Source of the DNA: an uncultured delta proteobacterium
GTDB taxonomy: Bacteria > Desulfobacterota > Syntrophorhabdia > Syntrophorhabdales > WCHB1-27
Length of the DNA: 64,000 nucleotides
Reading direction: 5' to 3'
NCBI GenBank assembly: GCA_963810935.1
Contig: CAWEPK010000017.1
Location: 160,001-224,000, forward strand
In this document: positions 24,656 through 44,499 of the stretch, piece after piece
Layout: each line of letters begins with the position of its first letter
Numbering within the stretch: the first letter of the stretch is position 1
Made by a program: the position numbers and the translations under genes
The notes under the pieces: generated by a model
Told to the model about the DNA's origin: nothing
The model's database searches: none
Seen by the model: the letters and a program-made list of their open reading frames with translations, nothing else

Positions 24656-24748
24656 GTCTGACTGTATAGCAAGCAATGAAGGGGAGGAAGGGCTTGCAGC
24701 AATGCCCGACTTCCCCTTCTTAATTCTTACCTGAAGGAGGCTTGAGGC

Positions 24749-26956: not shown

Positions 26957-26996
26957 AATAGAAAAGGGGAGCCGGTTTCGGCTCCCCTTTTCTATT
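26957..26996. terminator. Bidirectional intrinsic terminator
   Basis: Perfect 18-bp inverted repeat AATAGAAAAGGGGAGCCG-GTTT-CGGCTCCCCTTTTCTATT between convergent units. Confidence 0.9.
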
Positions 26997-27002
26997 ATTC
27001 GA

Positions 27003-27101
27003 TCACTTAACCGGCAGGCTGGGTGTCATCCACGGGAAGACATGCGCCTGCAACAGCAATATCAATCCCACGACACCGGCCGGCACTATCGAGTGCCAGA
27101 A
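27003..27101 (-). pseudogene. Remnant 3' end of a second lactate/glycolate permease gene
   Basis: Minus strand reads FWHSIVPAGVVGLILLLQAHVFPWMTPSLPVK*, 21/32 identical by manual count to the LctP C-terminus FWHSIALAAIMGIIVILQAYVFPWMIPSLPPK* (24557-24655). Confidence 0.85.
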
Positions 27102-27176
27102 ACGGCCGGGATGCCAGGCGCCACGGTCCGGACCACGCCGGAGACAATGCGCCAAATATCCCGGCCGCCCTTCGCC

Positions 27177-28439
27177 TTACTTGCTTGCTTCCTTTATCAG
27201 CTCACTGATGTGGATCACCTTTGTGGACAGGCCGGCCTTCTTTACGCCGTAGGTCAACTGTATCACGCAGCCCGGACATTCCGTCGTCAGTATGTCGGCC
27301 CCTGTTTTCTTGAGAAACTCCATCTTCTTTTCAAGGACCTTCATCGACTGCTCGTAGTGCATGATGTTGTAGCTGCCCGCCGCGCCGCAGCACCGGTCCG
27401 CTTCCTGCATCTCCACGAAGTTTATGCCGGGTATCTTCTTTATAAGCTCCCTGGGCTGCTTCGTAATATTCTGGTAGCGGCTCATGTGGCACGGGTCGTG
27501 ATACGTAACTTTCTTCCCGGCCAGGCTCTTACCGTTAAGCTCTCCGATCTGGGTCACCATGAACTCGCTGAAGGCCTTTACCTTTTTGGCGATGTCCTGC
27601 GCGCGCTTCTTCCAAACCGGGTCCTCTTCGAATAGCTCCGGGTACTCTTTCAGGAATGCAGAGCAGCTACCGCACTCCGTGACTATCACGGGGGTATCCA
27701 GCTTCTCCAGCACCTCGATGTTCTTGCGCGCCATCTTACGCGCCGCCTCGACGTCGCCGTAGCCGAAGGCCGGAAGCCCGCAGCAGCAGTTGTCTGCGAT
27801 CTTGACCTTTGCCCCCTGGCTGACCAGGACGCCGACCGTCGACTCGCTCACCTGCGGCAGCATATAATTGAAGCCGCAGCCGACGAAGTAGCTGACTTCC
27901 GTCTTCACTTTTGTCGGCTCCAGGCGAAGGTTGCGGACCCTCTCACGGAAGAAAGGCGTCGGTATCTTCTCTATGAGACCTTCGGCCTTGTCCATGTCTT
28001 TGCCGAACCAGCTTAAGATGCCCATGGCCCTGGCGAGCTTTGAGAGGCCCGTGTTCTTGCCGATGGCGAGCAGGCGGACATACTTGCCCATCTTCTGCGG
28101 GTTGGGCAGCAGGTCGTTGAAGAGCATCTTCATCACCTTCGGCTGCCCCACGCGCTTCATATACTCGGCCCTTCCTGCGACTACGGCCTTGTCCGTGCGC
28201 ACTGCGGGAAAGCAGTTGGCCACGCACGCCTTGCAGAGCAGGCACTCGAAGAGCGGGTCCTTGAAGTCCGCGCTGATCTCCATCTTGCCTTCGGCCAGGC
28301 CGCGCACGTGGGCATTGTGCCCGCGCGCCACGTTCTTCTCGACGCCGGTGACCGCGAATATCGGGCAGTGCGCCTGACAGAAGCCGCAACGGTTGCATTT
28401 TGAGACTTCTTCGTATACTTGCTTATATTGTTCGTTCAT
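27177..28439 (-). CDS. glcF: GlcF-like Fe-S subunit (2x[4Fe-4S] plus two CCG domains)
   Basis: CNRCGFCQAHCP, CLLCKACVANC, CCCG, ECGSC, YHDPCH, RCCG, ECPGC. Confidence 0.88.
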   Translation of the reverse strand: MNEQYKQVYEEVSKCNRCGFCQAHCPIFAVTGVEKNVARGHNAHVRGLAEGKMEISADFKDPLFECLLCKACVANCFPAVRTDKAVVAGRAEYMKRVGQPKVMKMLFNDLLPNPQKMGKYVRLLAIGKNTGLSKLARAMGILSWFGKDMDKAEGLIEKIPTPFFRERVRNLRLEPTKVKTEVSYFVGCGFNYMLPQVSESTVGVLVSQGAKVKIADNCCCGLPAFGYGDVEAARKMARKNIEVLEKLDTPVIVTECGSCSAFLKEYPELFEEDPVWKKRAQDIAKKVKAFSEFMVTQIGELNGKSLAGKKVTYHDPCHMSRYQNITKQPRELIKKIPGINFVEMQEADRCCGAAGSYNIMHYEQSMKVLEKKMEFLKKTGADILTTECPGCVIQLTYGVKKAGLSTKVIHISELIKEASK

Positions 28440-28451
28440 TGTTATTCCCCT

Positions 28452-29652
28452 CTATATGATCGGCGGAAAGACCCCGGTCGGGTCAAGCTGCTCCTTGACA
28501 GGCCGCAGCACTAGCTGCTCGATGGTGCCGTTCACTCTCGGCCCCCACTTCGCAAGCAGCGTCCGGTTGAGATTCAAGGGGAGCTGCGAAGCCGTTTGCA
28601 GCCAGGCTCTTTGCCCCTTCGATGATCCGCTCGTCCGCCCCGTACACCAAGACTACGCCGTTCCCCGCAAAGAGTACGGTCTTCGCAGACCCTGCAAGCG
28701 CGGTCAGGCCGGCCAGCACGCGGGGCCCTTCCGAAATAGGCACCGTGACCTTTATCGCCATGGCCTCTCCCTGGGGCTCGATTGCAGCCCGGATCGCCTG
28801 CCGCATGGCCTCCCGGCCCATCTTCGCGTCCCCTTTGCCGCCGAAGTTGCCCGCCAACACCATAAGGTCCTTGTTCTCGCGCTCTACTGCGAGCGGATGG
28901 CCTTCGAATGCCGCCAGGACTTTGAAGCCGCTTTTTGCAGGCTCGACAGTCACAGCCGTGGGGACAAGCACCGACGACCGCAGCGCCTGGAGGAACTTCT
29001 CAAGCTCACTTAAGCCCGGGATTGCGACCTCACAGACCGAAGAGGCCTCGGGCAGCGGAAAGATGCGCATGACGGCAGCCGTGATGAGAGCGAGGCTGCC
29101 CGCCGAGCCAATGAGGAACTTCGTCATGTCGTATCCGGAGACGTTCTTGACCGTCTTGCCTCCGAAAGCTACTAAGGCCCCCTTCGCGTCGATGCCCCGC
29201 ACGCCCAGGGCCTGGTCGCGCACGGTGCCGTAACGGAGACGGCACGGGCCGCTCCCGTTCGCGGCAAAGACGCCTCCCATGGTAGCCCTGTTCGAGAACG
29301 GCGGATCGAGCGGAAGGAAGAAGCCCTTACCCTTGCCCGCCAGGACATCGTTGACGCTGTCTATCGTCGTTCCCGCGAGGACCACCATGTTAAGGTTGGA
29401 TATGTCCAATTCGTTGATGCCCGACATCCCCGTCATATCAAGTAAGATATCGACCCGCTCGGGCAGTGTGCCGGCCGATGGTGTGGTTGCGGCGCCCATA
29501 GGCAGTACGGTCAGCTTTTCCTTGAAGGCCCCGGCGAGTACCTGCTGCGCCTCGCTCTCCTTCGTAGGCCGCTCCACGTGCTTCGCGGCAACTCCAAGGG
29601 ACTCTACGGTCCGAAGGGGCGCGCCGTCATTGCTACCTGTCTGCTTGTCCAT
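28452..29652 (-). CDS. glcE: GlcE-like FAD-binding subunit; 1-nt frameshift at about 28578-28581
   Basis: LPLDPP, ATMGG, GPCRLRYG, GGKTVKNVSGYD, GSAGSL. Removing one C restores the C-terminus ...KWGP...LVLRPVKEQLDPTGVFPPII* with stop at 28452-28454, just before the glcF RBS. Confidence 0.82.
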
Positions 29653-31043
29653 CACGCCCTCGCCTCCTCTTTAGGTATGACCTTCCCAGGATTGCAGAGC
29701 GCCTTGGGGTCGATACCCTGCTTGACGCCGCGCATCATCCTGACATCGCCTTCCTTGAACACGAAAAACATCTCGCGGAGCTTCTCCGTACCGATGCCGT
29801 GCTCGCCGCTGATCGTGCCGCCTAAATCGGCGCAGACCTGCAATATCTCGCTTCCCGCCTTGTGCACGCGGGCAAGCTCGTCCGGGTCGCGGTCATCGAA
29901 CATGATGAGGGGGTGGAGGTTGCCGTCTCCCGCGTGGAAGACGTTGCCGATGGGCACGTTGTATTTCTTGCTTATCCTCTTGACCTCCGACAGCGCTTTA
30001 GGCAGCTCCGTGCGGGGCACGGTGCCGTCGCAGACGAGGTAGGCCGGCCTTACCCTGGCGACCGCGCCGAACGCGCCCCTGCGCCCTGCCCAGAGGATAT
30101 TGCGCTCGTTCGCGTCCTTCGCCAGCCTGTGGCTCGTCGCCCCGTCCTTCTCGCAGACCTCGCTGATCCGCTTCGCCTGCTCGTCCATGCCGTCGGTGAG
30201 GCCGTCGAGCTCGATAAGGAGGACCGCTTCGGCGTCGAGGGGATAGCCCGCGTGCACCGAATCCTCGACCGCCCTTATGACGGCGTTGTCCATGATCTCG
30301 AGCGTTGCGGGGATGATGCCCTCCGCTATGATGTCGGAAACAGTCTGTCCCGCCGCCTCGACGGAGTTATAGATGGCAAGCATCGTGACGACCCGCTCGG
30401 GGCTTTTCATGATGCGGCAGATAATTTTCGTGACGATCCCTAGCGTGCCTTCCGCGCCGACGAGAAGTCCCATCAGGTCGGGACCGGGCGCGTCGAGCGC
30501 CTTGCCGCCTATCCAGGTCACTTCCCCGTTCGGAAGCACGACCTCGGCGCCGAGCACGTGGTTGCTGGTCACGCCGTATTTAAGGCAATGGGGGCCCCCC
30601 GCGTTCTCGCCGAGGTTGCCCCCCATCGAGGCAGCCTTCTGGCTGGCGGGGTCCGGCGCGTAGTAGTAGCCCTTTTCTGCGAGGGCGGACTGGACCGTAA
30701 GATTATAGATACCCGGCTCCACCGTGATCCTCTCGTTTTCGAGGTCGATCTCCAGGATGTGGTTCATGCGCGCGAACTCTATGACGACGCCGCCGTCCAT
30801 GGGTACCGTGCCCCCGGTAAGGTTCGTACCGGAGCCTCGCGCAACGTAGCTCATCCCTTCCTTGTAAAGGAGCTTGACGATCTGCGCAACCTGGTCGACG
30901 TTGTCGACGAAGGCGACCATGCCCGCCCTCCCCTTGACCAGCCCTGCGTCGTAGCTGTAGACCGTCAGGTCGACGTCTTTCCAGAGGACGTTGTCTTTCC
31001 CCACGATGCGCTGCAGGGCGTCACGGACTTGCTCTTTCTCCAT
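29652..31043 (-). CDS. glcD: GlcD glycolate oxidase/dehydrogenase FAD subunit
   Basis: RGSGTNLTGG, YAPDPASQ, ENAGGPHCLKYGVT, FHAGDGNLHP, SGEHGIG, NPGKV. Confidence 0.92.
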   Translation of the reverse strand: MEKEQVRDALQRIVGKDNVLWKDVDLTVYSYDAGLVKGRAGMVAFVDNVDQVAQIVKLLYKEGMSYVARGSGTNLTGGTVPMDGGVVIEFARMNHILEIDLENERITVEPGIYNLTVQSALAEKGYYYAPDPASQKAASMGGNLGENAGGPHCLKYGVTSNHVLGAEVVLPNGEVTWIGGKALDAPGPDLMGLLVGAEGTLGIVTKIICRIMKSPERVVTMLAIYNSVEAAGQTVSDIIAEGIIPATLEIMDNAVIRAVEDSVHAGYPLDAEAVLLIELDGLTDGMDEQAKRISEVCEKDGATSHRLAKDANERNILWAGRRGAFGAVARVRPAYLVCDGTVPRTELPKALSEVKRISKKYNVPIGNVFHAGDGNLHPLIMFDDRDPDELARVHKAGSEILQVCADLGGTISGEHGIGTEKLREMFFVFKEGDVRMMRGVKQGIDPKALCNPGKVIPKEEARA

Positions 31044-31081
31044 AAATACCTCCCGTCTTTAGAGCATCCTCTTTCTATTCC

Positions 31082-34000
31082 CTAGCCCTTCGGGGACCAG
31101 GCAGCCAGATGCTTCAAGTACTTCCATCTTCTCGTGACCGCTTCTTCCGCTTGCTTCAGCAACTCAGCCGCCACCTGCGGATTGCTCCTTTTGAGCGACT
31201 TGAACCGGTTTTCCCTGTATAGAAACTCGGCATAGGGTATGCTCGGGTCCTGACAATCGAGGGTAACCGGGTTTTTGCCCTCATCCTCGAGCATCGGGTT
31301 ATAACGGAAGAGCGGCCAGTGGCCCGAGGCCACCGCCTTCTTTTGCTCCTCCAACCCGAGCGACATGTCATCGATGCCCTGGCCGATGCAGTGCGAGTAC
31401 GCGACGATCAATGAAGGCCCGTTGAAGGCCTCCGCCTCCTGGAAGGCCCTTACCGTCTGCGCCGGGTTTGCGGCGAACGCGACGTGGGCCACGTAGACGT
31501 GCCCGTACGGTATCATCATCGAGGCGATATTCTTCTTGGGCATATGCTTCCCGGCCGCCGCGAACTGCGCTACGGCGCCGAGCGGCGTCGATTTCGACAT
31601 TTGCCCGCCCGTATTGGAGTAAACTTCCGTATCGAGGATCAACAAATTGACGTTCTGGCCGGAGGCCATGACCTGATCGACCCCGCCGTAGCCGATATCG
31701 TATCCCCATCCGTCGCCGCCCAGGCCGAACACCGCCTTTTTTACGAGGTAATCGGCGAAGGAGGCGAGGTCGACCGCATCGGCCGACTTATCGGCGGCGA
31801 GCAGCTTCTTCAGCTCCTCCACACGGGCGCGCTGCTGCTCGATGCCGCCCTGGTTGGACTGATCGGCGCTCACGAGCGCCTCGAACAGTACAGCAGCCCC
31901 TGCGTACTTCTCCTGTTTGGAGAGGCGCTCAACGATCTCGCGGGCCTGCGCGTTGAACTTATCCACCGTCTGCCTCATGCCGAAGGCAAACTCCGCCGCA
32001 TCCTCGAACAGGGAGTTGGACCAGGCAGGGCCCCTCCCGTCAGCCCGCTTCGCATACGGCGTAGTCGGCAGGTTGCCTCCATAAATGGAGGAGCAGCCCG
32101 TAGCGTTGCCGACGAGGAGCCTGTCGCCGAAAAGCTGCGTGAGGAGCTTCACGTAAGGCGTCTCGCCGCAGCCCGCGCACGCGCCGCTATATTCGAAAAG
32201 CGGCCTCACGAACTGGCTCCCCTTTACGCTCATGCGGTTGTATCTGGCAGGGTCCGTGTCCGGCAGGTCGAGGAAGAACGCGTAGTTCTCCGCCTCCTGG
32301 CTGCGAAGCGGCTCCTGTAGGTGCATGTTGATGGCCTTTTCGCCGGTCTTGTTCCCTTCCGCGTCTTTTTTCTGCGCAGGGCACATATTGACGCAGAGCT
32401 TGCAGCCCGTGCAGTCTTCCGGTGCGACCTGCACGGTGAACTTAAGGCCTTTAAGCTCCTTGGCGCCCTTCGCATCGGCCGACTTGAACGTCCCCGGCGC
32501 GCCTTTAAGCAACTCCGGCTCGTAAGCCTTGATCCTGATCGAGGCGTGGGGACAAACGAAGGAGCACGAGCCGCACTGGATGCAGACATCCGGCTCCCAG
32601 ACAGGGATGTGCACCGCTATGTTCCGTTTCTCGTACTGGGTAGTCGCGGTAGGCCACGTGCCGTCGTCAGGCATCGCCGAGACCGGCAGCGAATCGCCCT
32701 TCCCTTCTATCATGACCGCTGTGACGTCCTTGACGAACGCCGGCGCGTAATCGGGGACCGGCGGGCGCATGTCCAGGCTTGACGTGGCTTTCGCAGGTAT
32801 CGGCACCTCAACCAGGTTTTGGAGGGCCGTATCGACTGCGGCGTAGTTCATTCGCAGGACCTCATCGCCCTTCTTGCCGTATGTCTTCAGTATTTCCTTC
32901 TTGATCGCCTTGACCGCCTCGTCCTTCCCGACGATGCCCGATATGACGAAGAAGGCCGTCTGCATGATCATGTTTATGCGGGCGCCCAGGCCGATTTCCT
33001 CGGCCAGAGAGATGGCGTCGATGATATAGAGGCGCATCTTCTTGGCTATAAGCTGTTTCTGGACGGCTGCGGGCAGGGCATCCCACACCTCGTCCTTGCC
33101 TTTAGCCGTCGTGAGCAGGAAGACGGCGCCTTCTTCCGCCTGGGCGAGCATGTCGTATTTTTCGAGGAACGTCTCGTTGTGGCAGGCAACGAAGTTCGCG
33201 TCCGACAGCAAATACGGGCTGCGTATCGCGTCCTTGCCGAACCGCAGGTGCGAGACCGTCATCGAGCCCGATTTCTTCGAATCGTAAGCGAAGTAGCCCT
33301 GCGCGTAATTCTCCGTCTCTCCGCCGATGATCTTGATCGTGTTCTTGTTGGCCCCGACCGTACCGTCCGCCCCGAGGCCGTAAAAGAGGGCGCGGAACGC
33401 CTTGTCGTGCAGCCTGAACGATTCGTCTACCGGCAGGCTCGCGCCGGTCACGTCATCGTTGATGCCTACCGTGAAATGGTTCTTCGGGGCAGCGGAAGAG
33501 AGGTTGTCGAAAACCGCCTTCACCATGGCAGGGGTGAAATCTTTGGAGCCGAGACCATAGCGGCCGCCTACGACCTTAGGATAGGAGCCCCAGTGCGCGA
33601 GGCCCGTATCATGCGCCTCGCCGAGCGCTGCCCGCACGTCGAGATAGAGCGGCTCGCCGATTGCGCCGGGCTCCTTCGTGCGGTCGAGGACCGCGATCGA
33701 TTTGACCGTCGAAGGCAGCGCCTTTGCAAAAGCCTCTACGTCGAACGGCCTGTAAAGAACGACCTGGAGAAGGCCTACCTTCTCGCCCGTGGCGTTGAGG
33801 GCATCGATCGTGGAGAGGACCGTTTCTCCGCCCGATGCCATGACGACGACGACACGCTCGGCGTCGGCCGGACCGAAGTAGTCGAAAAGCTTGTACCTGC
33901 GTCCCGTAAGACCGGCGAACTTCTCCATCGCCTTCTCTAATATGGCCGGGATCGCCAGGTAGTACTTGTTCACTGTCTCCCTTCCCTGAAAGTAAACATC

Positions 34001-34666
34001 GGGGTTCTGGGAGGTGCCGCGGATCATGGGACGGTCAGGGGTGAGACCCCTCTTCCGGTGGGCCATGATGAGCCCGTTGTCGATCATCGCCCGCATGTCG
34101 TCGAAGCTAAGCTCTTCGATCTTCTGGATCTCGTGAGACGTCCTGAAGCCGTCGAAAAAGTGGAGGAAAGGCACCCTCGCCTCGAAGGTGGCTGCCTGGG
34201 CGATAAGGGCAAAATCCATTGCCTCCTGTACGTTTTTCGACGCGAGCATCGCAAACCCGGTCTGGCGGACGGCCATTACGTCGCCGTGGTCCCCGAAGAT
34301 GGAAAGCGCCTGTGCGGCCAGCGCCCTCGCGGTAACGTGAAAAACCGTGGGTATCAGCTCGCCGGCAATCTTATACATGTTCGGGATGAAGAGAAGCAGC
34401 CCCTGTGAAGCGGTAATGGTGCTCGTCACGGCGCCTGTGGTCAGCGACCCATGGACGGCCCCTGCTGCCCCTGCTTCCGACTGCATCTGCCCTATCATCG
34501 GCACGGAGCCCCAGATGTTCTTCTGTCCCGCGGCCGATTTGGCGTCGCAAATCTCCGCTATGGGCGAAGAAGGCGTTATAGGGTAGATAGTGATGATCTC
34601 ATTTGTCGCATGGACAACGTGCGCGCATGCCGTACATCCGTCGACCGTTACCATTTTTCTGCTCAC
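31082..34666 (-). CDS. nifJ: Pyruvate:ferredoxin (flavodoxin) oxidoreductase, single-chain
   Basis: YPITPSS, QSEAGAAG, DGFRTSHE, GLGADGTVGANKN, YDSKKSG, CIQCGSCSFVCP, CTGCKLCVNMCP, ACAGCGE, GGDGWGYDIG, YSNTGGQ. Confidence 0.96.
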   Translation of the reverse strand: MSRKMVTVDGCTACAHVVHATNEIITIYPITPSSPIAEICDAKSAAGQKNIWGSVPMIGQMQSEAGAAGAVHGSLTTGAVTSTITASQGLLLFIPNMYKIAGELIPTVFHVTARALAAQALSIFGDHGDVMAVRQTGFAMLASKNVQEAMDFALIAQAATFEARVPFLHFFDGFRTSHEIQKIEELSFDDMRAMIDNGLIMAHRKRGLTPDRPMIRGTSQNPDVYFQGRETVNKYYLAIPAILEKAMEKFAGLTGRRYKLFDYFGPADAERVVVVMASGGETVLSTIDALNATGEKVGLLQVVLYRPFDVEAFAKALPSTVKSIAVLDRTKEPGAIGEPLYLDVRAALGEAHDTGLAHWGSYPKVVGGRYGLGSKDFTPAMVKAVFDNLSSAAPKNHFTVGINDDVTGASLPVDESFRLHDKAFRALFYGLGADGTVGANKNTIKIIGGETENYAQGYFAYDSKKSGSMTVSHLRFGKDAIRSPYLLSDANFVACHNETFLEKYDMLAQAEEGAVFLLTTAKGKDEVWDALPAAVQKQLIAKKMRLYIIDAISLAEEIGLGARINMIMQTAFFVISGIVGKDEAVKAIKKEILKTYGKKGDEVLRMNYAAVDTALQNLVEVPIPAKATSSLDMRPPVPDYAPAFVKDVTAVMIEGKGDSLPVSAMPDDGTWPTATTQYEKRNIAVHIPVWEPDVCIQCGSCSFVCPHASIRIKAYEPELLKGAPGTFKSADAKGAKELKGLKFTVQVAPEDCTGCKLCVNMCPAQKKDAEGNKTGEKAINMHLQEPLRSQEAENYAFFLDLPDTDPARYNRMSVKGSQFVRPLFEYSGACAGCGETPYVKLLTQLFGDRLLVGNATGCSSIYGGNLPTTPYAKRADGRGPAWSNSLFEDAAEFAFGMRQTVDKFNAQAREIVERLSKQEKYAGAAVLFEALVSADQSNQGGIEQQRARVEELKKLLAADKSADAVDLASFADYLVKKAVFGLGGDGWGYDIGYGGVDQVMASGQNVNLLILDTEVYSNTGGQMSKSTPLGAVAQFAAAGKHMPKKNIASMMIPYGHVYVAHVAFAANPAQTVRAFQEAEAFNGPSLIVAYSHCIGQGIDDMSLGLEEQKKAVASGHWPLFRYNPMLEDEGKNPVTLDCQDPSIPYAEFLYRENRFKSLKRSNPQVAAELLKQAEEAVTRRWKYLKHLAAWSPKG

Positions 34667-34702
34667 GGGTCCTTTCCTCCTGATACTGAAGTTTCAAAAC
34701 AG

Positions 34703-34742
34703 ACGGTGGGGTGCTCTCCCGAAAGAGGCGTACCCCACCGCT
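34703..34742. other. Intercistronic stem-loop between the lyase and PFOR genes
   Basis: CGGTGGGGT...ACCCCACCG stem with inner CTCT/AGAG pairing; no clear U-tract. Confidence 0.5.
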
Positions 34743-34758
34743 CTTTCGTCATATAGTT

Positions 34759-35655
34759 CTACTTGCCTTTGCGCGCCTTGTCAAAGGCTTCTATCTCGGC
34801 AAGGGTCAAAAGAATAGTCCTTGCGTTGTCGTAAACCGGCGTATCGACCATCTTGCCCTTATAGGAGACGGCCGCCTTACCCTTGGCGAGGCCCTCTTCC
34901 TCGAAGGTCTTGACTACGCCGCGCGCCCACTCCACGTCGTCGGGCGCCGGGGCATAGAGCCTGTTGGAGGGCTCGATCTGGCTCGGATGGATGAGCATCC
35001 TGCCCTCATAGCCCATCTGCCTGCCCTGCTGGACGCTCTTCTCGAAGCCTACCGTATCCTGGAATGCTACATACGGGCAGTCGATGGCGATCTTGCCGGC
35101 CGCCCTCGCTGCGCATGCGATATGGAAACGGGCATAAAGCTGCTCGTCGCCTTCGCTCGTGATCTTTACCCGCATATCCTTCGTATAGTCGACTGCGCCG
35201 AAGATGAGGGAGTTGACCCTGGGTGACGCCATGGCCGAATAATACGCGTTGATGGCGCCTTTCGCCGTCTCGCAGAGAAGCTGGATGGCGACGGTGCCGA
35301 CGGGGATGCCGCGCCGTCTTTCGAGCTCTTCGAGCTTCCAGTCGAGGCGTTTCACGTCGTCCGGGTGGCCGGCCTTCGCGAGGCAGACGCCTGAGAGGCC
35401 CGGGTGGACGATGGCTTCGAGGTCATCGTTGGTCATCAGGGTTTCCCAGTTGTTGATGCGAGAATAGACCACCGAGCCGCCCGATCCGGCCAGCTTCAAG
35501 TTTTGCCGGACCAGCTCACGCGCTTTTTCCTTCTCGGCCGGGGGGACGGAATCCTCGAGGTCGAGGGTAACGATGTCAGCCGGCAGCGAAGGCGCTTTGT
35601 CGATAAAGCTCTGGTTGTTTCCCGGAACGTAAAACACCGATCTCATTACAGGCAT
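34759..35655 (-). CDS. CitE/HpcH-family acyl-CoA lyase (malyl-/citramalyl-/citryl-CoA lyase-like)
   Basis: RSVFYVPG, LDLEDSV, RIN, ETAKG, FGAVDY, IHPSQI, GKMVDTP. Confidence 0.88.
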   Translation of the reverse strand: MPVMRSVFYVPGNNQSFIDKAPSLPADIVTLDLEDSVPPAEKEKARELVRQNLKLAGSGGSVVYSRINNWETLMTNDDLEAIVHPGLSGVCLAKAGHPDDVKRLDWKLEELERRRGIPVGTVAIQLLCETAKGAINAYYSAMASPRVNSLIFGAVDYTKDMRVKITSEGDEQLYARFHIACAARAAGKIAIDCPYVAFQDTVGFEKSVQQGRQMGYEGRMLIHPSQIEPSNRLYAPAPDDVEWARGVVKTFEEEGLAKGKAAVSYKGKMVDTPVYDNARTILLTLAEIEAFDKARKGK

Positions 35656-35666
35656 GTCGTACCTCC

Positions 35667-36566
35667 TTAGTGGTTTTCGATTAACCGTTTAATCGTGGGC
35701 GCCAGCTCGTCGGGCCGGTCGACCACGTGCACTCCCGCTTCCTTGAGTGACTCCACCTTGCTCTTCGCGGAGCCTTTACCCCTTTCGATGATGCTGCTCG
35801 CGTGGGAGAAACGCATCCCTTCCGGCGCCCATGCGCCCGCCACGAAGATTACGAGGGGCTTGGTGAACTGGCCCTTCCGGACGCAGTCGGCAGCCTCTTC
35901 CTCATGGGGCCCGCCTATCTCGCCGAAGACGGCCACGCCCTTCGTTTCGGCGTCCTTCTCGAAAAGGGGCAGTATCTCCCCCATCGATATGCCGGTCACG
36001 GGCTCGGTGCCTACGTGGACGACCGTGCTCATGCCGAGGCCGGCGCAGTTAAGCGCCCACGGCACCGTCGCCGACTGGCCGCCGCTTCTCGAAATAACGC
36101 CGACCGGGCCGGGTATGAAGACTTTCCGCGCAAAATCCGGGGTCCCGCCCAGCCAGCCTGCCGCCGCTATGCCCGGGCTGATGATGCCTATGGAGCCGGG
36201 GCCTAAGATGCGGGCGCCGTTCAGCTTCGCGTAGGCCACCATCTCCATAATGTCGTACAGGGGGACGCGCTCGACGGGGCTGACAATAAACTTGATCCCC
36301 GAATCGATCGCCTCGTAGACTGCGTCCTTGAGGCCGGGGCCGGGTACGAAGGTGACGCTCGCGGCGATAGGGCCTTTGGCACGGACCGCCTCCGCCACCG
36401 TGTTATAGACCGGAATGCCGGAGACTTCCTCGCCTCCCCTGCCGGGTGTTACCCCTGCCAGGACTTTCGTCCCATATCCCTTCATGAAAGCGGCGCGGGC
36501 AGACCCCTCTCGACCGGTGATCCCTTGCACCACAATCGTCGTATCTTTCGTCAAAAGAATTGCCAT
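35667..36566 (-). CDS. Divergent ADP-forming acyl-CoA synthetase alpha subunit (SucD/MtkB-like)
   Basis: VQGITGREG, GVTPG, SRSG, GEIGG, phospho-His loop RFSHASSII. Confidence 0.88.
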   Translation of the reverse strand: MAILLTKDTTIVVQGITGREGSARAAFMKGYGTKVLAGVTPGRGGEEVSGIPVYNTVAEAVRAKGPIAASVTFVPGPGLKDAVYEAIDSGIKFIVSPVERVPLYDIMEMVAYAKLNGARILGPGSIGIISPGIAAAGWLGGTPDFARKVFIPGPVGVISRSGGQSATVPWALNCAGLGMSTVVHVGTEPVTGISMGEILPLFEKDAETKGVAVFGEIGGPHEEEAADCVRKGQFTKPLVIFVAGAWAPEGMRFSHASSIIERGKGSAKSKVESLKEAGVHVVDRPDELAPTIKRLIENH

Positions 36567-36584
36567 ATGCTCACCGCCTTTTCG

Positions 36585-36869
36585 TTATGCTATTCCGCGT
36601 TTCTTCTTGTACTCTTCCAGGCCGGGGATCGGCGCCTCTATGTTAATGGCGCTGTTGCCCCGGAACCAACACTCATACTCGCACGCAAGGCACTCGGTGC
36701 CGCGGAGCTTCGCGAATTCCGCGTCGCCCCCAAGGGCCGGCTTGCCGTCCTTCAACACCAGGATGCCCCTTGCGAATTTCTTGCACGCGTCAACGCATGC
36801 GTGCGTCTTGCACCCAAGGCACTTCTCGTCATCTATAATGACCTTGATGGTCCTCTCGTCGAACTCCAT
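36585..36869 (-). CDS. Small ferredoxin-like protein (7 Cys)
   Basis: CLGCKTHACVDAC and GTECLACEYEC; RBS AGGAGG; ATG abuts the upstream TAG. Confidence 0.8.
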   Translation of the reverse strand: MEFDERTIKVIIDDEKCLGCKTHACVDACKKFARGILVLKDGKPALGGDAEFAKLRGTECLACEYECWFRGNSAINIEAPIPGLEEYKKKRGIA

Positions 36870-38132
36870 CTATCCCTCCTTTATGCCCCTCTTCGCCCTG
36901 TAGTCCATGATCATCGCCTTGAGCCGCGTGGCCAAGAACGTCGTCTCATAAACCTTGTCGCCGCCGTAAATCTCGATGGGCGACTTCGCGCTGAGGTCCT
37001 TCGTCCCTTCGTGGAGGATCTTCAGCGACTCCTCCTCCTTGTTGCCGCAAAGCAGCAGCAGGCATGGGAAGTCGGGCCTCTTGGGCAGCTCCTCACGCAG
37101 GATCTTCACGATGCCGTGGGCATGGTGCCATTGCTCCTGGTTGGCGTACATGAACCCGCCCAGGAAATAGGCCTCAATGCCGGGCTGGGCAAAAATGACC
37201 TTTGCCGCCCTGTAGACCTTGGAGGCAGGCGGGTTGCCGCTGGTGTCCGCATAGTTTGCGATCTTGAGGCCCTGGCGCGTGATGGCGTCTACGCCCAAAA
37301 TGGCGCCGCCGCCGCCTAAGCCGTGGTAGCCCACGTAGCCGAGCCCCTTGATCTCCGGGACCATCTGGGCAATGTACGCTGTGCCGCGCAGGTCCCCTTC
37401 CTCGATGCCCCATGCGATCTTGTCGAGCTCCGTAGGCGCCGTCGTTGCCTCACGGGCGACTTCGATGCCGAACTCGGGATGGCGGAAAACGGAGGAATCG
37501 TCTATGGCGATGCGGCAGTCGGCCGCCAGTACCTTGCCTTCCTTGGTAAGTACCAGGGGGTTGATCTCGGCGATCCTGCAATGGTACTTCACGAAGGTCT
37601 GGTACAGACCCATGATGGCCTGTCCGACGGCGGGGAGTATCTTGGTCGGCACATTCAGGCCGACAGCGAGGTTGTAAGCATCAAAAAGCTTGAAGCCCCG
37701 CAGGACGTCCACCTTTACCGTCCTGATCTTGTCCTCGGGCACCGATTCGATGTCCATACCGCCTTCCGTGCTGAACATGACGACCGGACACCGGGAATCC
37801 TTGGACGGGTCGATGATGATGCCGACGTAGTATTCCGTCTCGATGGCCAGCTTTTCCTCGACCAGGACCTTCTCGACCTTCCACGACTTCAGCTCCGTGC
37901 CCAGAAGGCCCGCTGCAGCGCCTTCCGCATCCTTCGGGCTGTCGGCGAACTTGATGCCGCCCGCCTTGCCCCTGCCGCCGGCCCACACCTGGGCCTTCAC
38001 GGCCACGGGCTTGCCGATCGTCCCGGCGATGCGGCCCGCCTCTTCGGCGGACGTAGCGACCTCGCCTTTCGGCGTCGCCACCTTGGCCTCCCTGAGGATC
38101 TGCTTGCCCTGAAATTCATATAACCGAGCCAT
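36870..38132 (-). CDS. Divergent ADP-forming acyl-CoA synthetase beta subunit (ATP-grasp; SucC/MtkA/ACL-like)
   Basis: MARLYEFQGK, KAQVWAGGRGKAGGI, VLVEE, GGMDIE, EINPL; ligase domain GLGGGGA...ANYADTSGNP; RBS AGGAGGTG before ATG 38132. Confidence 0.88.
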   Translation of the reverse strand: MARLYEFQGKQILREAKVATPKGEVATSAEEAGRIAGTIGKPVAVKAQVWAGGRGKAGGIKFADSPKDAEGAAAGLLGTELKSWKVEKVLVEEKLAIETEYYVGIIIDPSKDSRCPVVMFSTEGGMDIESVPEDKIRTVKVDVLRGFKLFDAYNLAVGLNVPTKILPAVGQAIMGLYQTFVKYHCRIAEINPLVLTKEGKVLAADCRIAIDDSSVFRHPEFGIEVAREATTAPTELDKIAWGIEEGDLRGTAYIAQMVPEIKGLGYVGYHGLGGGGAILGVDAITRQGLKIANYADTSGNPPASKVYRAAKVIFAQPGIEAYFLGGFMYANQEQWHHAHGIVKILREELPKRPDFPCLLLLCGNKEEESLKILHEGTKDLSAKSPIEIYGGDKVYETTFLATRLKAMIMDYRAKRGIKEG

Positions 38133-38242
38133 TATCACCTCCTGAATGGTGTCACACGTCTTTATGAGAACGCAGGACGGACCGACACGGCCCCGAAACG
38201 CCGGCCAAATCATCGGTCCCGAAACATCTCGCTAATGTTATT

Positions 38243-38278
38243 GTATAAGTATACCAAACCATAGGGGGGGCCTGTCAA
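38243..38278 (-). promoter_or_regulatory. Promoter of the CoA-ligase operon, overlapped by a palindromic operator candidate
   Basis: Minus strand TTGACA-N19-TATACT with TG extended -10 (TGgTATACT); palindrome GTATA-AG-TATAC at 38243-38254. Confidence 0.55.
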
Positions 38279-38353: not shown

Positions 38354-39097
38354 ATGTTCAGACAAATCAAGATACGCCACGTAGCGGAAGAAGTCTTCGA
38401 CCAGATCAAGTCCGCCATCGAGACCGGCAAGCTGAAACCGGGCGAGAAGCTGCCTGCCGAGAGGGAGCTTATGGGCCAGCTCGGGGTCAGCCGCGTTCCG
38501 ATCCGGGAGGCCCTGAAGCTGCTTTCGAACATGGGCCTGATCGAGACGAGGCAGGGCGGGGGCAGCTACGTCCGCGCGCTCCTCTCGGACCGCTTGCTCG
38601 ACCCTCTGGGCGCCATCATAGCCGACAGCGCGGAGAAGCTCTTCGAGCTGGTCGAGGTGCGCAGGGAAATCGAGACATGGTCGGCATGCTACGCCGCGAA
38701 AGAGGCGAGCCCGGTGGAAATCGCCGACATCGGCCGCGTGCTCCGGGAAATGAAGATGCATGTCGATTCCGGCTCCAGGGTGCCGGTCAGCCTCGATATA
38801 GAATTTCACCGCGCCATTGCCCAGGCCAGCTCCAATACGATACGGGCGCACCTGTTCCATACCATCCTGGCCATATTTTCCGATTATTTCAGGCTTACCA
38901 TAGAGACCATCTGCCCGCACGAAGACGACCAGCGCCGCCTCTACGATCAGCACGTGGAGATATTCAACGCCATTAAAGACCGCGACGCCAAGCAGGCCCG
39001 CGACGCCATAACCCAGCACCTTACGTTCGTTGCGGAGGAATTGAAAAAACAGATGCCGATGGCCGGCCTGAAAACGGTTGCGCCGGCAGAAGAGTAA
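38354..39097 (+). CDS. GntR/FadR-family regulator (GlcC/LldR/PdhR-like)
   Basis: LKPGEKLPAERELMGQLGVSRVPIREAL, RQGGGSYV, DIEFHRAIA, H...H in the FCD domain; TTGACA at 38312. Confidence 0.92.
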   Translation: MFRQIKIRHVAEEVFDQIKSAIETGKLKPGEKLPAERELMGQLGVSRVPIREALKLLSNMGLIETRQGGGSYVRALLSDRLLDPLGAIIADSAEKLFELVEVRREIETWSACYAAKEASPVEIADIGRVLREMKMHVDSGSRVPVSLDIEFHRAIAQASSNTIRAHLFHTILAIFSDYFRLTIETICPHEDDQRRLYDQHVEIFNAIKDRDAKQARDAITQHLTFVAEELKKQMPMAGLKTVAPAEE

Positions 39098-42057: not shown

Positions 42058-42061
42058 CGGC

Positions 42062-44452: not shown

Positions 44453-44499
44453 CCATGGTATAATAACCTGAGGGACCACAGGCCGGACAGGAGGTACAT

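What the first reader, a model, noticed from the sequence alone, without database searches (positions are those of the whole stretch)
27177..38132. One operon joins a divergent acyl-CoA synthetase with embedded ferredoxin, a CitE lyase, PFOR and GlcDEF: candidate anaerobic 2-hydroxy-acid pathway with substrate-level phosphorylation
Seen: eight closely spaced minus-strand genes (beta, ferredoxin, alpha, CitE-like, PFOR, glcD, glcE, glcF), then an lctP remnant and terminator, with a divergent GlcC/LldR-like regulator. Known: GlcDEF interconverts glycolate and glyoxylate (or oxidises lactate). CitE-family malyl-CoA lyase links acetyl-CoA + glyoxylate with malyl-CoA. Malate thiokinase, an SCS homolog, can conserve the thioester as ATP, and PFOR regenerates acetyl-CoA. 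From memory, a malyl-CoA route was described biochemically in anaerobic glyoxylate/glycolate fermenters. Inference: this is the gene cassette for such a cycle, or for an analogous cleavage such as citramalyl-CoA to pyruvate + acetyl-CoA, using a non-canonical ligase. The malate-to-pyruvate step is not encoded in this window.
Basis: partly seen in the sequence, partly recalled or inferred. Interest (0 to 1): 0.85.

Follow-up and report, generated by a model that had tools for sequence, protein, structure and literature searches.

The report
Iron-sulfur thiokinase-lyase operon for glycolate
An uncultured anaerobe carries a widely conserved but uncharacterised operon that probably burns glycolate through malyl-CoA while saving one ATP, using a succinyl-CoA-synthetase relative with an extra iron-sulfur subunit.

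Summary
Eight close-packed minus-strand genes (SCS-like beta, a 94-aa Fe-S protein, SCS-like alpha, a CitE/CLYBL-like lyase, PFOR, GlcD/E/F-like) end in a 3' remnant of lctP and a hairpin. A GntR/FCD regulator is divergent.

The gene order is not chance. beta-fdx-alpha-citE is almost invariant in 80 genome loci of anaerobic Thermodesulfobacteriota, and glcDEF follows in most long loci. por has joined the operon at two different positions in two distant lineages.

The small Fe-S protein is a real third subunit. It is fused to beta in several relatives, and a complex model places it on beta (score 0.82, best control 0.00), against a family-specific His-rich motif beside the acid-binding loop.

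beta fails the equivalog cut-offs for both SucC and MtkA. Its C-terminal half resembles citryl-CoA synthetase.

Best reading (about 0.5): an ATP-conserving substitute for malate synthase. Glycolate goes to glyoxylate, then with acetyl-CoA to malyl-CoA, then to malate plus ATP, then to pyruvate, and PFOR regenerates acetyl-CoA.

Citramalyl-CoA, citryl-CoA and the reverse direction remain possible. No biochemistry or expression data exist. I found no paper assigning these genes.

The parts
36870..38132 (-). beta subunit of an ADP-forming acyl-CoA synthetase. It has an SCS-type ATP-grasp domain and a CCS/ACL-like ligase half.
   Evidence: PF08442 at 179.1 bits. SucC equivalog 242.5 (<370); MtkA equivalog 175.8 (<604). 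PDB: 3ufx_B 200 bits, citryl-CoA synthetase 6hxq_B 147 bits. SD-supported start at 38132. The near clade (loci whose Fe-S protein is >=60% identical to the window's) is monophyletic and lies apart from SucC-like representatives.
36585..36869 (-). 94-aa ferredoxin-like Fe-S protein with 7 invariant Cys, predicted to be a third subunit bound to beta
   Evidence: C17, C20, C25, C29, C60, C63 and C67 are invariant in 22 sequences. It is fused to the C-terminus of beta in relatives. Complex model ipSAE 0.82, best control 0.00. 284 cluster representatives, none with a functional name.
35667..36566 (-). alpha subunit (CoA-binding domain and phosphohistidine-loop domain)
   Evidence: PF02629 at 73.5 bits. 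SucD equivalog 272.3 (<336). PDB 2yv2_A at 262.8 bits. F253-S254-H255-A256-S257 invariant in 27 sequences.
34759..35655 (-). CitE/CLYBL-type acyl-CoA C-C lyase, proposed to act as malyl-CoA lyase
   Evidence: PF03328 at 129.7 bits. citE equivalog 199.5 (<443). PDB 1sgj 131.7, Mcl 5ugr 128.2, CLYBL 5vxc 120.8 bits. The query's residues align with matching residues of the solved lyases at the LDLEDSV, ET, FGAxDY, IHP and MVD positions. The Mcl-type insertion is absent.
31082..34666 (-). single-polypeptide pyruvate:ferredoxin oxidoreductase
   Evidence: TIGR02176 at 1778.7 bits (cut-off 911). A second copy, 72% identical, lies elsewhere in the genome.
29652..31043 (-). GlcD-like FAD-linked 2-hydroxyacid dehydrogenase subunit
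   Evidence: PF02913 and PF01565. TIGR00387 at 515 bits (cut-off 567.9).
28483..29655 (-). GlcE-like FAD-binding subunit
   Evidence: PF01565 at 82 bits. GlcE equivalog 121.3 (<284). The start overlaps the glcD stop by 4 nt.
27177..28439 (-). GlcF-like Fe-S subunit (two 4Fe-4S motifs and two CCG domains)
   Evidence: PF02754 at 126.4 bits, PF13183. Best NCBIfam hit is the LdhH C-terminal half at 286.5 bits; GlcF 157.9 (<333).
27005..27092 (-). 3' remnant of an lctP/glcA-type permease gene (last ~30 codons plus stop)
   Evidence: tblastn against the window's intact LctP, residues 577-607. In relatives L024-L026 an intact lctP follows glcF on the same strand.
26960..26993 (.). G+C-rich hairpin with flanking A/T runs. 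It is a likely bidirectional terminator shared with the convergent sodC.
   Evidence: Read directly. Not found by the pattern scan.
38354..39097 (+). divergent GntR/FCD regulator (LldR/PdhR/GlcC-like)
   Evidence: PF00392 and PF07729. LldR 153.1, PdhR 132.5, GlcC 122 bits, all below their cut-offs. A gntR homologue lies within 4.5 kb upstream in 24 of 63 loci.
38243..38254 (.). 12-bp palindrome in the divergent intergenic region, a candidate GntR-type operator
   Evidence: Read directly. Not tested further.
22832..26149 (+). context: intact LctP-family permease (22832-24655) and a second GlcD-like dehydrogenase (24749-26149), convergent with the operon
   Evidence: PF02652 at 461.6 bits. The LctP and GlcA equivalogs score 460 and 456 bits. 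PF02913 and PF01565.
39240..45777 (+). context: second GntR/FCD gene, a LivKHMGF-type ABC transporter and a LarA-family 2-hydroxyacid racemase homologue
   Evidence: LarA 337 bits and malate racemase LarAH6 312 bits, both below their cut-offs. The same block is present in L022 and L023.

Best explanation
The operon encodes an anaerobic glycolate/glyoxylate oxidation cycle in which malate synthase is replaced by two enzymes that keep the thioester energy as ATP.

The proposed steps are all inferred:
1. Glycolate enters through an LctP/GlcA-type permease. The in-operon copy has decayed here and an intact copy lies 2.5 kb away.
2. The GlcDEF-like flavo-iron-sulfur dehydrogenase oxidises glycolate to glyoxylate.
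3. The CitE/CLYBL-type lyase condenses glyoxylate with acetyl-CoA to malyl-CoA.
4. A three-subunit ADP-forming ligase (beta, a ferredoxin-like subunit bound to beta, and alpha) converts malyl-CoA + ADP + Pi to malate + ATP + CoA.
5. Malate is decarboxylated to pyruvate by malic enzyme encoded elsewhere. In some relatives this could instead run through malate dehydrogenase and a Na+-pumping oxaloacetate decarboxylase.
6. The in-operon PFOR regenerates acetyl-CoA and gives CO2 and reduced ferredoxin.

The net reaction is glycolate to 2 CO2 + 6 [H] + 1 ATP. A divergent GntR/FCD regulator controls the operon, as GlcC does for the E. coli glc operon.

What is shown: the gene content, the conserved gene order, the fusion of the Fe-S protein to beta and its predicted binding there, and the distinct clade of the ligase.

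What is inferred: the substrates, the direction and the role of the Fe-S cluster. I take the cluster to be structural or regulatory, placed next to the acid-binding loop.
For: (1) Synteny over 80 genome loci: beta 69/71, alpha 75/76, citE 71/72, glcD 42/53, glcD plus glcF 34/45, and any GlcD-like gene in 34/37 loci with 9 kb or more on both sides. In 80 metagenome loci, the near clade (Fe-S protein >=60% identical to the window's) has alpha 34/34, citE 24/25 and glcD 13/16.

(2) por lies in the operon in two distant lineages at different positions. It sits between citE and glcD here and in L023 (shown). It sits after glcF in 7 of 42 long loci of the Desulfocapsaceae type. This argues for independent recruitment.

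(3) The layout mirrors the E. coli layout of glcC divergent from glcDEFGBA (recalled). The parallel elements are an FCD regulator, three dehydrogenase subunits, a permease after glcF in L024-L026, and the lyase plus ligase where malate synthase would be.

(4) Neighbours in relatives are glyoxylate-linked: a glyoxylate-reductase-like dehydrogenase (352 bits on NF009714) and a BhcA-like aminotransferase. GlcD scores 515-540 bits on TIGR00387.

(5) No malate synthase (PF01274) was found in the own genome, which is 93.47% complete. The operon's lyase is the only strong HpcH/CitE member: 130.5 bits against 32 bits or less for the others. Malic-enzyme homologues exist at two places.

(6) In a more distant clade of the same four-gene cassette, the neighbours in 8 long loci are class-I fumarase subunits, PrpD-family proteins and fumarate-reductase-type flavoproteins. 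This fits a C4/C5 hydroxy-dicarboxylate as the family's acid substrate.

(7) The malyl-CoA route with glycolate or glyoxylate is described biochemically for Syntrophobotulus glycolicus and Moorella sp. HUC22-1 (passages of PMC8092247). The beta protein occurs in Desulfofustis MAGs and in the isolate Desulfofustis limnaeus. That genus contains the glycolate oxidiser D. glycolicus (recalled, and cited in PMC8092247).
Against: beta and alpha score below every curated equivalog cut-off. beta scores lower on malate-CoA ligase (175.8 of 604) than on SucC (242.5 of 370).

The ligase half of beta shares the GGGG, GNPPA and D-x-RG elements with citryl-CoA synthetase. It also nearly reaches the Pfam citrate-binding model (26.7 against 26.8).

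The lyase is of the CitE/CLYBL type and lacks the Mcl insertion. CLYBL-type enzymes also handle citramalyl-CoA (recalled).

In the closest sister genera the cassette lies beside lctP-larA-glcD2, which looks like lactate utilisation, and beside a CitF equivalog (651.8 bits against a cut-off of 501), with no glcDEF.

Na+-oxaloacetate decarboxylase genes lie in or beside the cassette in L058, L092, L125 and L169.

Most non-Syntrophorhabdales loci carry a formyltransferase-like gene between citE and glcD (36 of 63). The pathway does not explain it.

Both malic-enzyme places in this genome read in two frames, which means either assembly indels or pseudogenes.

There are no expression or enzyme data.
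Confidence: 0.5

Rival explanations
1. Citramalyl-CoA version. The 2-oxoacid is pyruvate. The ligase activates (S)-citramalate, or makes ATP from citramalyl-CoA. The CLYBL-like lyase interconverts citramalyl-CoA with pyruvate plus acetyl-CoA. PFOR oxidises the pyruvate. The GlcD-type enzymes serve D-lactate oxidation.
For: The lyase is as close to CLYBL (120.8 bits) as to Mcl (128.2 bits) and lacks the Mcl insertion. In sister genera the cassette lies beside lctP-larA-glcD2. PFOR is in the operon. In the distant clade, class-I fumarase-type hydratases (a family that includes mesaconases; recalled) and PrpD-family proteins flank the cassette.
Against: No mesaconate, itaconate or citramalate hydratase is in the window or in near-clade loci. 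The three-subunit GlcDEF with glyoxylate reductase and glyoxylate aminotransferase neighbours fits glyoxylate better. Making citramalate from lactate has no obvious catabolic purpose.
Confidence: 0.15
2. Citryl-CoA version. beta/Fe-S/alpha is a citryl-CoA synthetase and the CitE-type protein a citryl-CoA lyase. Together they would form an ATP-citrate lyase of a new composition. It would run towards oxaloacetate plus acetyl-CoA, or in reverse as an ATP-yielding citrate synthase.
For: beta's ligase half shares motifs with Hydrogenobacter citryl-CoA synthetase (6hxq_B, 147 bits, alignment). The Citrate_bind model scores 26.7 against 26.8. The best NCBIfam hit of the lyase is citE (199.5 bits). 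A CitF equivalog lies next to the cassette in L028-L031 and L034. Na+-oxaloacetate decarboxylase genes lie in or beside the cassette in L058, L092, L125 and L169.
Against: No citrate carrier or aconitase was seen in any locus examined. This reading does not explain the near-constant link to glcDEF. The citE score is far below its cut-off of 443. The distant-clade neighbours are C4/C5 enzymes.
Confidence: 0.12
3. Same enzymes in the opposite direction. Malate, possibly after racemisation by the LarA homologue and uptake by the adjacent ABC transporter, is activated at the cost of ATP and cleaved to acetyl-CoA plus glyoxylate. Glyoxylate is then reduced by GlcDEF as an electron sink ('glyoxylate respiration') or transaminated to glycine.
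For: A LarA homologue scores 312 bits on the malate-racemase model, and an ABC transporter follows the regulator here and in L022 and L023. In the distant clade, fumarase and fumarate-reductase-type genes lie upstream of the cassette. Aminotransferase and glyoxylate reductase genes lie nearby. Glyoxylate respiration in S. glycolicus is in the title of reference 58 of PMC8092247.
Against: The LarA score is below its cut-off and scores higher on lactate racemase (337 bits). This route costs ATP where direct malic-enzyme oxidation is available. The permease after glcF in L024-L026 fits uptake of the GlcDEF substrate.
Confidence: 0.12
4. Ordinary succinyl-CoA synthetase, with unrelated genes that only happen to be neighbours.
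For: Public annotations call beta 'succinyl-CoA synthetase beta subunit'. SucC and SucD are the best NCBIfam hits.
Against: The genome has two further SucC-like genes at 34-35% identity. The clade is separate from SucC-like representatives. The gene order is kept across orders. The Fe-S partner and the lyase are almost never absent.
Confidence: 0.03

Closest known systems
Malate thiokinase MtkAB plus malyl-CoA lyase Mcl of the methylotroph serine cycle
   Same: A two-subunit SCS-family ligase encoded next to a CitE-superfamily lyase that links malate, malyl-CoA, glyoxylate and acetyl-CoA. It has the same ATP-grasp, CoA-binding and phosphohistidine-loop architecture.
   Different: beta scores only 175.8 bits on the MtkA equivalog (cut-off 604). 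There is an obligatory third Fe-S subunit. The ligase half is CCS/ACL-like. The lyase lacks the Mcl insertion. The proposed direction is ATP-yielding. The hosts are strict anaerobes.
E. coli glycolate operon, glcC divergent from glcDEFGBA (layout recalled)
   Same: A divergent FCD-type regulator, three dehydrogenase subunits with the same domains, and an LctP/GlcA-family permease after the dehydrogenase genes in relatives.
   Different: Malate synthase G is replaced by the lyase plus the ligase. PFOR is added. The GlcD/E/F proteins are below the equivalog cut-offs.
Citryl-CoA synthetase CcsAB / citryl-CoA lyase and ATP-citrate lyase
   Same: beta shares the GGGG, GNPPA, D-x-RG and A-N loop elements with 6hxq_B. 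The logic is the same: a ligase paired with a lyase that releases acetyl-CoA.
   Different: The lyase partner is CitE-type and not citrate-synthase-type. The N-terminal ATP-grasp domain is closer to SucC (3ufx_B, 200 bits). An Fe-S subunit is present. The context is glycolate dehydrogenase and not the reductive TCA cycle.
Biochemically described malyl-CoA pathway of glycolate/glyoxylate fermentation (Syntrophobotulus glycolicus, Moorella sp. HUC22-1)
   Same: The same proposed sequence of reactions, also in strict anaerobes (passages of PMC8092247).
   Different: That pathway rests on enzyme activities. I found no paper assigning genes to it. The S. glycolicus genome paper has none of the searched terms. 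Whether those strains carry this cassette could not be checked here.
Human CLYBL / bacterial CitE-like lyases
   Same: Similar length, no Mcl insertion, and the query's residues align with matching residues of the solved lyases at the LDLED, ET, FGAxDY, IHP and MVD positions.
   Different: About 120-130 bits only. This lyase is always encoded with the three-subunit ligase.

Membership tests
Succinyl-CoA synthetase superfamily (ADP-forming acyl-CoA synthetases) | beta: ATP-grasp domain followed by a ligase/CoA domain | tested here: met
   PF08442 at 179.1 bits over residues 30-221. The SucC models align over residues 30-408.
Succinyl-CoA synthetase superfamily (ADP-forming acyl-CoA synthetases) | alpha: CoA-binding Rossmann domain and a conserved His loop (the phosphohistidine role is recalled) | tested here: met
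   PF02629 at 73.5 bits and PF00549 at 37.2 bits. S254-H255-A256 invariant in 27 sequences. Phosphorylation was not tested.
SucCD proper (succinate-CoA ligase equivalogs) | score above the NCBIfam equivalog cut-off | tested here: not met
   NF001913 at 242.5 (<370). NF004230 at 272.3 (<336). The clade is separate from SucC-like representatives.
Malate thiokinase MtkA | score above the NCBIfam equivalog cut-off NF010647 | tested here: not met
   175.8 bits against a cut-off of 604.
Citryl-CoA synthetase / ATP-citrate lyase ligase module | citrate-binding domain and CCS/ACL-type motifs | tested here: inconclusive
   PF16114 at 26.7 against 26.8. PF24948 at 52.8 against 83. 6hxq_B at 147 bits with shared motifs. 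No curated CCS equivalog appeared among the NCBIfam hits.
CitE / HpcH-HpaI lyase superfamily | HpcH_HpaI TIM-barrel domain, with residues matching those of solved lyases at the conserved motif positions | tested here: met
   PF03328 at 129.7 bits (cut-off 25). The query's residues align with matching residues in 1sgj, 5ugr, 5vxc and 4l9y. Which of these residues bind metal or act as base is recalled, not tested.
Citrate lyase beta subunit CitE (equivalog) | score above the TIGR01588 cut-off | tested here: not met
   199.5 bits against 443.4. No citD or citF in the window.
Canonical malyl-CoA lyase (Mcl1 type) | Mcl-type ~20-residue insertion after the second metal-binding motif; equivalog score | tested here: not met
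   The insertion present in 5ugr and 4l9y is absent from the query. NF041626 at 77.3 (<500).
Glycolate oxidase/dehydrogenase GlcDEF | three subunits: FAD PCMH plus FAD-oxidase_C; FAD PCMH only; two 4Fe-4S motifs plus two CCG domains | tested here: met
   Domain architecture.
Glycolate oxidase/dehydrogenase GlcDEF | equivalog scores for GlcD, GlcE and GlcF | tested here: not met
   515 (<567.9), 121.3 (<284) and 157.9 (<333). Substrate not testable here.
Pyruvate:ferredoxin oxidoreductase (single-chain) | score above the TIGR02176 cut-off with all domains | tested here: met
   1778.7 bits against 911.35. POR_N, PFOR_II, POR, EKR, Fer4 and TPP_enzyme_C all present.
2x[4Fe-4S] bacterial-type ferredoxins | two CxxCxxCxxxC(P) motifs (8 Cys) | tested here: not met
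   The near clade has CxxCxxxxCxxxC plus GxxCxxCxxxC. That gives 7 invariant Cys, with Gly57 invariant where the first Cys of motif II should be. The fused distant forms keep 8 Cys. Pfam Fer4_2 at 21.5 (<24.5). The fold model gives only weak ferredoxin-like matches.

The most novel reading that the evidence does not exclude
The ligase is a new three-subunit kind of SCS/ACL-family enzyme. In it an iron-sulfur cluster sits at the beta/Fe-S-subunit interface, directly against the acid-binding loop. The near-clade cluster has lost one Cys ligand and faces the invariant beta motif W-H-H-A-H.

On this reading the cluster is not decoration. It either takes part in binding the 2-hydroxy-dicarboxylate or gates substrate-level phosphorylation by redox state. 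Gating would tie ATP synthesis from malyl-CoA to the electron flow of GlcDEF and PFOR.

Together with the CitE-type lyase, this enzyme would supply the long-missing genes of the anaerobic malyl-CoA pathway of glycolate oxidation, spread over hundreds of uncultured sediment and soil anaerobes.
Probability: 0.25. Interest if true: 0.85.

Novelty: new variant of a known kind. Interest (0 to 1): 0.68.

Why it matters
Glycolate is a major exudate of algae and plants (recalled), and how it is consumed without oxygen is known only from enzyme assays in a few isolates. This cassette gives a concrete, widely distributed gene set for that process. In the genome scan, 210 candidate stretches encode a relative of the Fe-S protein, with up to 100 genes read per genome window, and 21 of 301 genomes sampled from the phylum carry it, clustered in a few families.

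It also shows how an anaerobe could gain one ATP where aerobes waste a thioester in malate synthase.

An SCS-family ligase with a dedicated Fe-S subunit has, to my knowledge, not been described. If the cluster has a catalytic or regulatory role, it would add a new principle to a textbook enzyme family. It might also offer an ATP-conserving module for synthetic glyoxylate and malyl-CoA pathways.

The gene set would let metagenome surveys recognise anaerobic glycolate oxidisers.

Tried and rejected
- The search of earlier findings was not open.
- Expression: no RNA holder was listed for window 29000-38300. The four holders with most of the stretch are soil-metagenome DNA runs of one study. Co-transcription was therefore not tested and read laying was not used.
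- The terminator and promoter pattern scan of 26000-39500 gave counts at the shuffle expectation (14 against 12.7; 6 against 4.4). It missed the hairpin after the lctP remnant.
- An inverted-repeat search of the intergenic region gave only an A/T-rich palindrome.
- The fold of the Fe-S protein alone was mediocre (pLDDT 69.3). Foldseek gave no match at E <= 0.001. The best rows were the Fe-S domain of archaeal RNA polymerase subunit D and ferredoxin domains.
- PDB neighbours of a TRAP binding protein gave no usable ligand clue.
- The first maximum-likelihood tree (139 rows) did not finish. A FastTree of 72 rows was used instead, keeping every second near-clade row and every third distant representative.
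- I could not check by name whether Syntrophobotulus glycolicus, Desulfofustis glycolicus or Moorella HUC22-1 carry the cassette. The one genome-contig scan kept only the best 80 of 210 loci, all of them MAGs.
- The species description of D. limnaeus is not in the library.
- Literature searches for a gene assignment found nothing relevant.
- I considered that the formyltransferase-like neighbour might be the housekeeping fmt. I rejected this because it scores below the fmt cut-off (175.5 against 201.5) and matches the 10-formyl-THF dehydrogenase N-domain better (228 bits against 160).

Full report
**What is in the window**

The window is contig C17:160001-224000 of a 4.06-Mb MAG (93.47% complete, 7.06% contamination). 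Its closest public relatives are MAGs titled Syntrophorhabdales, Syntrophaceae or 'uncultured delta proteobacterium'.

Eight minus-strand ORFs fill 27177-38213. Pfam and NCBIfam give:
- an SCS-type beta subunit: ATP-grasp_2 at 179.1 bits, SucC equivalog at 242.5 bits (cut-off 370), MtkA equivalog at 175.8 bits (cut-off 604)
- a 94-aa protein with only a sub-threshold Fer4_2 hit
- an SCS-type alpha subunit: CoA_binding at 73.5 bits, SucD equivalog at 272.3 bits (cut-off 336)
- an HpcH/CitE lyase: 129.7 bits, citE equivalog at 199.5 bits (cut-off 443)
- a bona fide single-chain PFOR: 1778.7 bits (cut-off 911)
- three proteins with the GlcD, GlcE and GlcF domain architectures, each below its equivalog cut-off

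The gaps between the genes are 0, 18, 11, 92, 38, -4 and 43 nt. The beta ORF as listed begins at 38213.

Downstream of glcF, the last ~30 codons of an lctP gene survive at ~27005-27092. A strong hairpin follows at ~26960-26993 and faces the convergent Cu/Zn superoxide dismutase gene.

Upstream and divergent are a GntR/FCD regulator, a second GntR/FCD gene, a LivKHMGF-type ABC transporter and a LarA-family racemase homologue. An intact LctP-family permease and a further GlcD-like gene lie at 22832-26149.

**The cassette is conserved**

Among 41 related genomes, 15 hold a beta at 77% identity or more. In all the others the best match is 41% or less, which is ordinary SucC. The window's own genome has two such paralogues at 34-35%. 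In 8 regions fetched from relatives, beta-fdx-alpha-citE was present 8 of 8 times, while the flanking genes varied.

The small Fe-S protein is the most specific marker. It has 284 cluster representatives in the large protein collection. The 120 listed are 68-91% identical, and all are named hypothetical or generically Fe-S.

A pattern scan of the species-representative genomes with its alignment found 225 stretches, of which 210 encode a relative. The best 80 loci are all MAGs. Their titles are Syntrophorhabdales, Syntrophaceae/Syntrophales, Syntrophobacterales, Desulfocapsaceae, Desulfobulbaceae, Desulfobacterales, an Olavius symbiont, and one each labelled Chloroflexi and Myxococcota.

On these 80 loci, counting only loci long enough to show each gene:
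- beta precedes the Fe-S gene in 69 of 71
- alpha follows in 75 of 76
- citE follows in 71 of 72
- an orthologous glcD follows on the same strand in 42 of 53
- glcD plus glcF follow in 34 of 45
- por follows in 7 of 42
- a gntR homologue lies upstream in 24 of 63
- some GlcD-like gene is present in 34 of 37 loci with 9 kb or more on both sides

The 11 long loci without glcD downstream are mostly the sister genera of the window's own family. There the cassette sits beside lctP-larA-glcD2 and a CitF equivalog.

In a sample of 301 genomes of the phylum, 21 carry the Fe-S gene. They are concentrated in a few families (9/9, 7/7 and 2/2).

por is inside the operon in two distant lineages, but at different positions. 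It lies between citE and glcD here and in L023, and after glcF in the Desulfocapsaceae-type loci. I read this as independent recruitment and hence as a functional link.

**The Fe-S protein is a subunit of the ligase**

Three lines of evidence agree.

1. Profile-free scoring against 1.84 billion representatives returned relatives of beta of 491-541 aa. The four whose sequences I read (P0126, P0128, P0129, P0136) carry the ferredoxin-like domain at the C-terminus. Cys motifs found by script show the same for P0137, P0145 and P0153. In 80 metagenome loci, 3 have beta and the Fe-S domain in one frame without a stop (L111, L134, L137).

2. A three-chain complex prediction (beta, alpha and the Fe-S protein as partner, each with its own alignment) gave a median ipSAE of 0.82 over three runs (0.79, 0.82, 0.83), against a best control of 0.00. 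The runs agree in at least 97% of contacts and the partner's pLDDT is at least 85. That mark was reached by 116 of 157 solved complexes and by 2 of 215 mismatched pairs. The counts hold only roughly here, because my own alignments and three chains were used. This supports binding but does not show it.

3. The predicted interface is on beta only, at residues 235-247, 302-317, 335-343 and 351-376. It meets Fe-S protein residues 5-8, 58-65 and 77-94.

Beta residues 335-339 are the motif W-H-H-A-H, invariant in 31 sequences. It immediately follows the G-G-x-x-x-A-N loop. That loop aligns with the loop which in citryl-CoA synthetase and ATP-citrate lyase binds the acid; the alignment is and the role of the loop is recalled.

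Fe-S protein residues 58-65 carry Cys60 and Cys63.

The near clade has 7 invariant Cys and an invariant Gly57 where the first Cys of the second motif should be. The fused distant forms keep all 8 Cys. So one cluster is probably [3Fe-4S], or uses a non-Cys ligand, and it is modelled next to the His-rich motif and the substrate loop. This last step is inference: the model has no cofactors, and the His motif is not strictly kept in the distant clade.

**What kind of ligase and lyase**

In a FastTree of 72 rows the near clade is monophyletic (support 99). It lies inside a 45-row group (support 99) that holds the fused forms and is separate from 27 SucC-like representatives. I left out every second near-clade row and two of every three distant representatives.

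Against solved structures, beta's best match is Thermus SCS-beta (200 bits), then Hydrogenobacter citryl-CoA synthetase (147 bits), ahead of E. coli SucC (126 bits). The residue alignments show that the second half of beta shares with citryl-CoA synthetase, and not with SucC, a GGGG stretch, a G-N-P-P-A stretch and an insertion with D-x-R-G. That same insertion forms part of the predicted Fe-S interface.

The lyase is about equally distant from:
- a Deinococcus CitE-like protein (131.7 bits)
- Methylobacterium malyl-CoA lyase (128.2 bits)
- human CLYBL (120.8 bits)

At the conserved motif positions its residues match those of the solved lyases. It lacks the ~20-residue insertion of the two true malyl-CoA lyases.

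Both enzymes are therefore members of their superfamilies but not of any characterised family.

**Which substrate**

Several findings favour glyoxylate and malyl-CoA.
- There is a near-constant link to a three-subunit GlcDEF whose D subunit scores 515-540 bits on the glycolate-oxidase model (cut-off 568).
- An LctP/GlcA-type permease lies after glcF in L024-L026, and its remnant lies in the window.
- The FCD regulator is divergent, as in the E. coli glc operon (recalled).
- Recurrent neighbours include a glyoxylate-reductase-like dehydrogenase (352 bits), BhcA-like aminotransferases and TRAP transporters.
- No malate synthase was found in this genome.
- PFOR, present in the operon, would close the cycle.
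- Malic-enzyme homologues exist at two places. Both read in two frames, as does the second PFOR copy, so assembly indels are likely.

A more distant clade has beta at 48-60% identity, citE at 34-50% and the Fe-S protein below 60%. It keeps the four-gene core (alpha 23 of 23, citE 18 of 20) but never has glcD downstream (0 of 11). In 8 long loci of this clade the neighbours are:
- class-I fumarase subunits (L122 twice, L148)
- PrpD-family proteins (L115, L122, L127, L187)
- fumarate-reductase-type flavoproteins (L115, L122, L187)
- 2-oxoacid:ferredoxin oxidoreductases (L118, L135)

This points to a C4/C5 hydroxy-dicarboxylate, malate or citramalate, as the family's acid.

The malyl-CoA route of glyoxylate and glycolate fermentation is reported for S. 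glycolicus and Moorella sp. HUC22-1 in passages of PMC8092247. The S. glycolicus genome paper contains none of the terms malyl, malic enzyme, glycolate dehydrogenase or lyase. Relatives of a Desulfocapsaceae-type beta (L099, 54% identical to the window's) occur in Desulfofustis MAGs and in the isolate Desulfofustis limnaeus, everywhere under generic names.

Other findings count against a firm call.
- beta has citryl-CoA-synthetase-like features.
- The lyase is of the CLYBL type.
- A CitF equivalog (651.8 bits, cut-off 501) lies beside the cassette in the sister genera.
- Na+-oxaloacetate decarboxylase genes lie in or beside four loci.
- The sister genera have lctP-larA-glcD2 (lactate-type) neighbours.

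I therefore put the malyl-CoA cycle at about 0.5. Citramalyl-CoA, citryl-CoA and the reverse (cleavage) direction share most of the rest.

**An unexplained companion**

Most loci outside the window's own order carry a ~303-aa Formyl_trans_N+C protein between citE and glcD (36 of 63). Some carry it upstream instead. It is not an fmt equivalog (175.5 bits against 201.5). Its best match is the N-terminal domain of 10-formyl-THF dehydrogenase (228 bits), ahead of Met-tRNA formyltransferase (160 bits). The window's genome has only 32-33% paralogues.

From memory, that domain and HypX pass a formyl group to a pantetheine thiol. A guess is that this protein interconverts formyl-CoA and 10-formyl-THF, and that formyl-CoA could arise if PFOR acts on glyoxylate. 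None of this was tested.

**Prior knowledge and novelty**

Six full-text searches found no paper that assigns genes to the anaerobic malyl-CoA pathway or describes an SCS-family ligase with an Fe-S subunit. Subscription journals are not covered.

I rate the finding a new variant of a known kind. The reactions are known, but the enzyme clade, its third subunit and the operon are uncharacterised.

**Verdict**

Interest is 0.68.

Noticed in passing
L063:12191-13105 and equivalents in 36 of 63 related loci; absent from the window: A formyltransferase-like gene sits between citE and glcD. It is closest to the N-terminal domain of 10-formyl-THF dehydrogenase (228 bits) and not to fmt. Its role in a glycolate operon is unexplained. 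It may interconvert formyl-CoA and formyl-THF.
   Followed up: partly
L028-L031, L034 (e.g. L029:14130-15671): In the sister genera of the window's family, a stand-alone CitF equivalog (citrate lyase alpha, 651.8 bits) lies next to the cassette on the other strand. No citD was seen among the genes examined. An Nramp-like carrier follows citE in L029 and L033.
   Followed up: partly
L058:13409-16415; also L092, L125, L169: Na+-translocating oxaloacetate decarboxylase alpha and beta genes lie inside or beside the cassette in a few loci. An MTH1187-type 'thiamine-binding' protein and a class-I methyltransferase recur between citE and glcD in Desulfocapsaceae-type loci.
   Followed up: partly
L115, L118, L122, L127, L135, L138, L148, L187 (metagenome contigs): A distant clade of the beta-Fe-S-alpha-citE cassette, some members with beta and the Fe-S domain fused, lies among class-I fumarase, PrpD-family and fumarate-reductase-type genes and B12-mutase/CoA-transferase genes. 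This suggests a second, different pathway using the same module.
   Followed up: partly
window 44500-45777 (+), after 39928-44452: A LarA-family nickel-pincer racemase homologue (337 bits on lactate racemase, 312 bits on malate racemase, both below their cut-offs) follows a LivKHMGF-type ABC transporter and two GntR/FCD genes. The same block occurs in L022 and L023.
   Followed up: partly
G000:C1:146083-149675; G000:C12:151854-152391 and C12:19968-20366: The second PFOR copy (72% identical) reads in three frames, and both malic-enzyme places read in two frames. The cause is either assembly indel errors or decayed genes.
   Followed up: partly
window 48999-54872: An aconitase-X family gene (494 bits) lies divergent from a GntR/FCD regulator, a TRAP transporter (DctQMP) and a short-chain dehydrogenase. 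This is a separate small-acid utilisation cluster.
   Followed up: no
window 29-22376: A large polysaccharide or O-antigen-type biosynthesis region. It contains a sugar transferase, a DegT aminotransferase, a radical-SAM/SPASM protein, glycosyltransferases, Wzy- and Wzx-like proteins and a TPR/PMT_2 protein.
   Followed up: no
window 26401-26940 (+): A periplasmic Cu/Zn superoxide dismutase gene in a strict-anaerobe-type genome, wedged between the two 2-hydroxyacid gene groups. It shares the hairpin terminator with the operon.
   Followed up: no
window 57996-62787: A MacAB-type efflux system: HlyD-family adaptor, ABC ATPase, MacB/FtsX permease and an outer-membrane factor.
   Followed up: no
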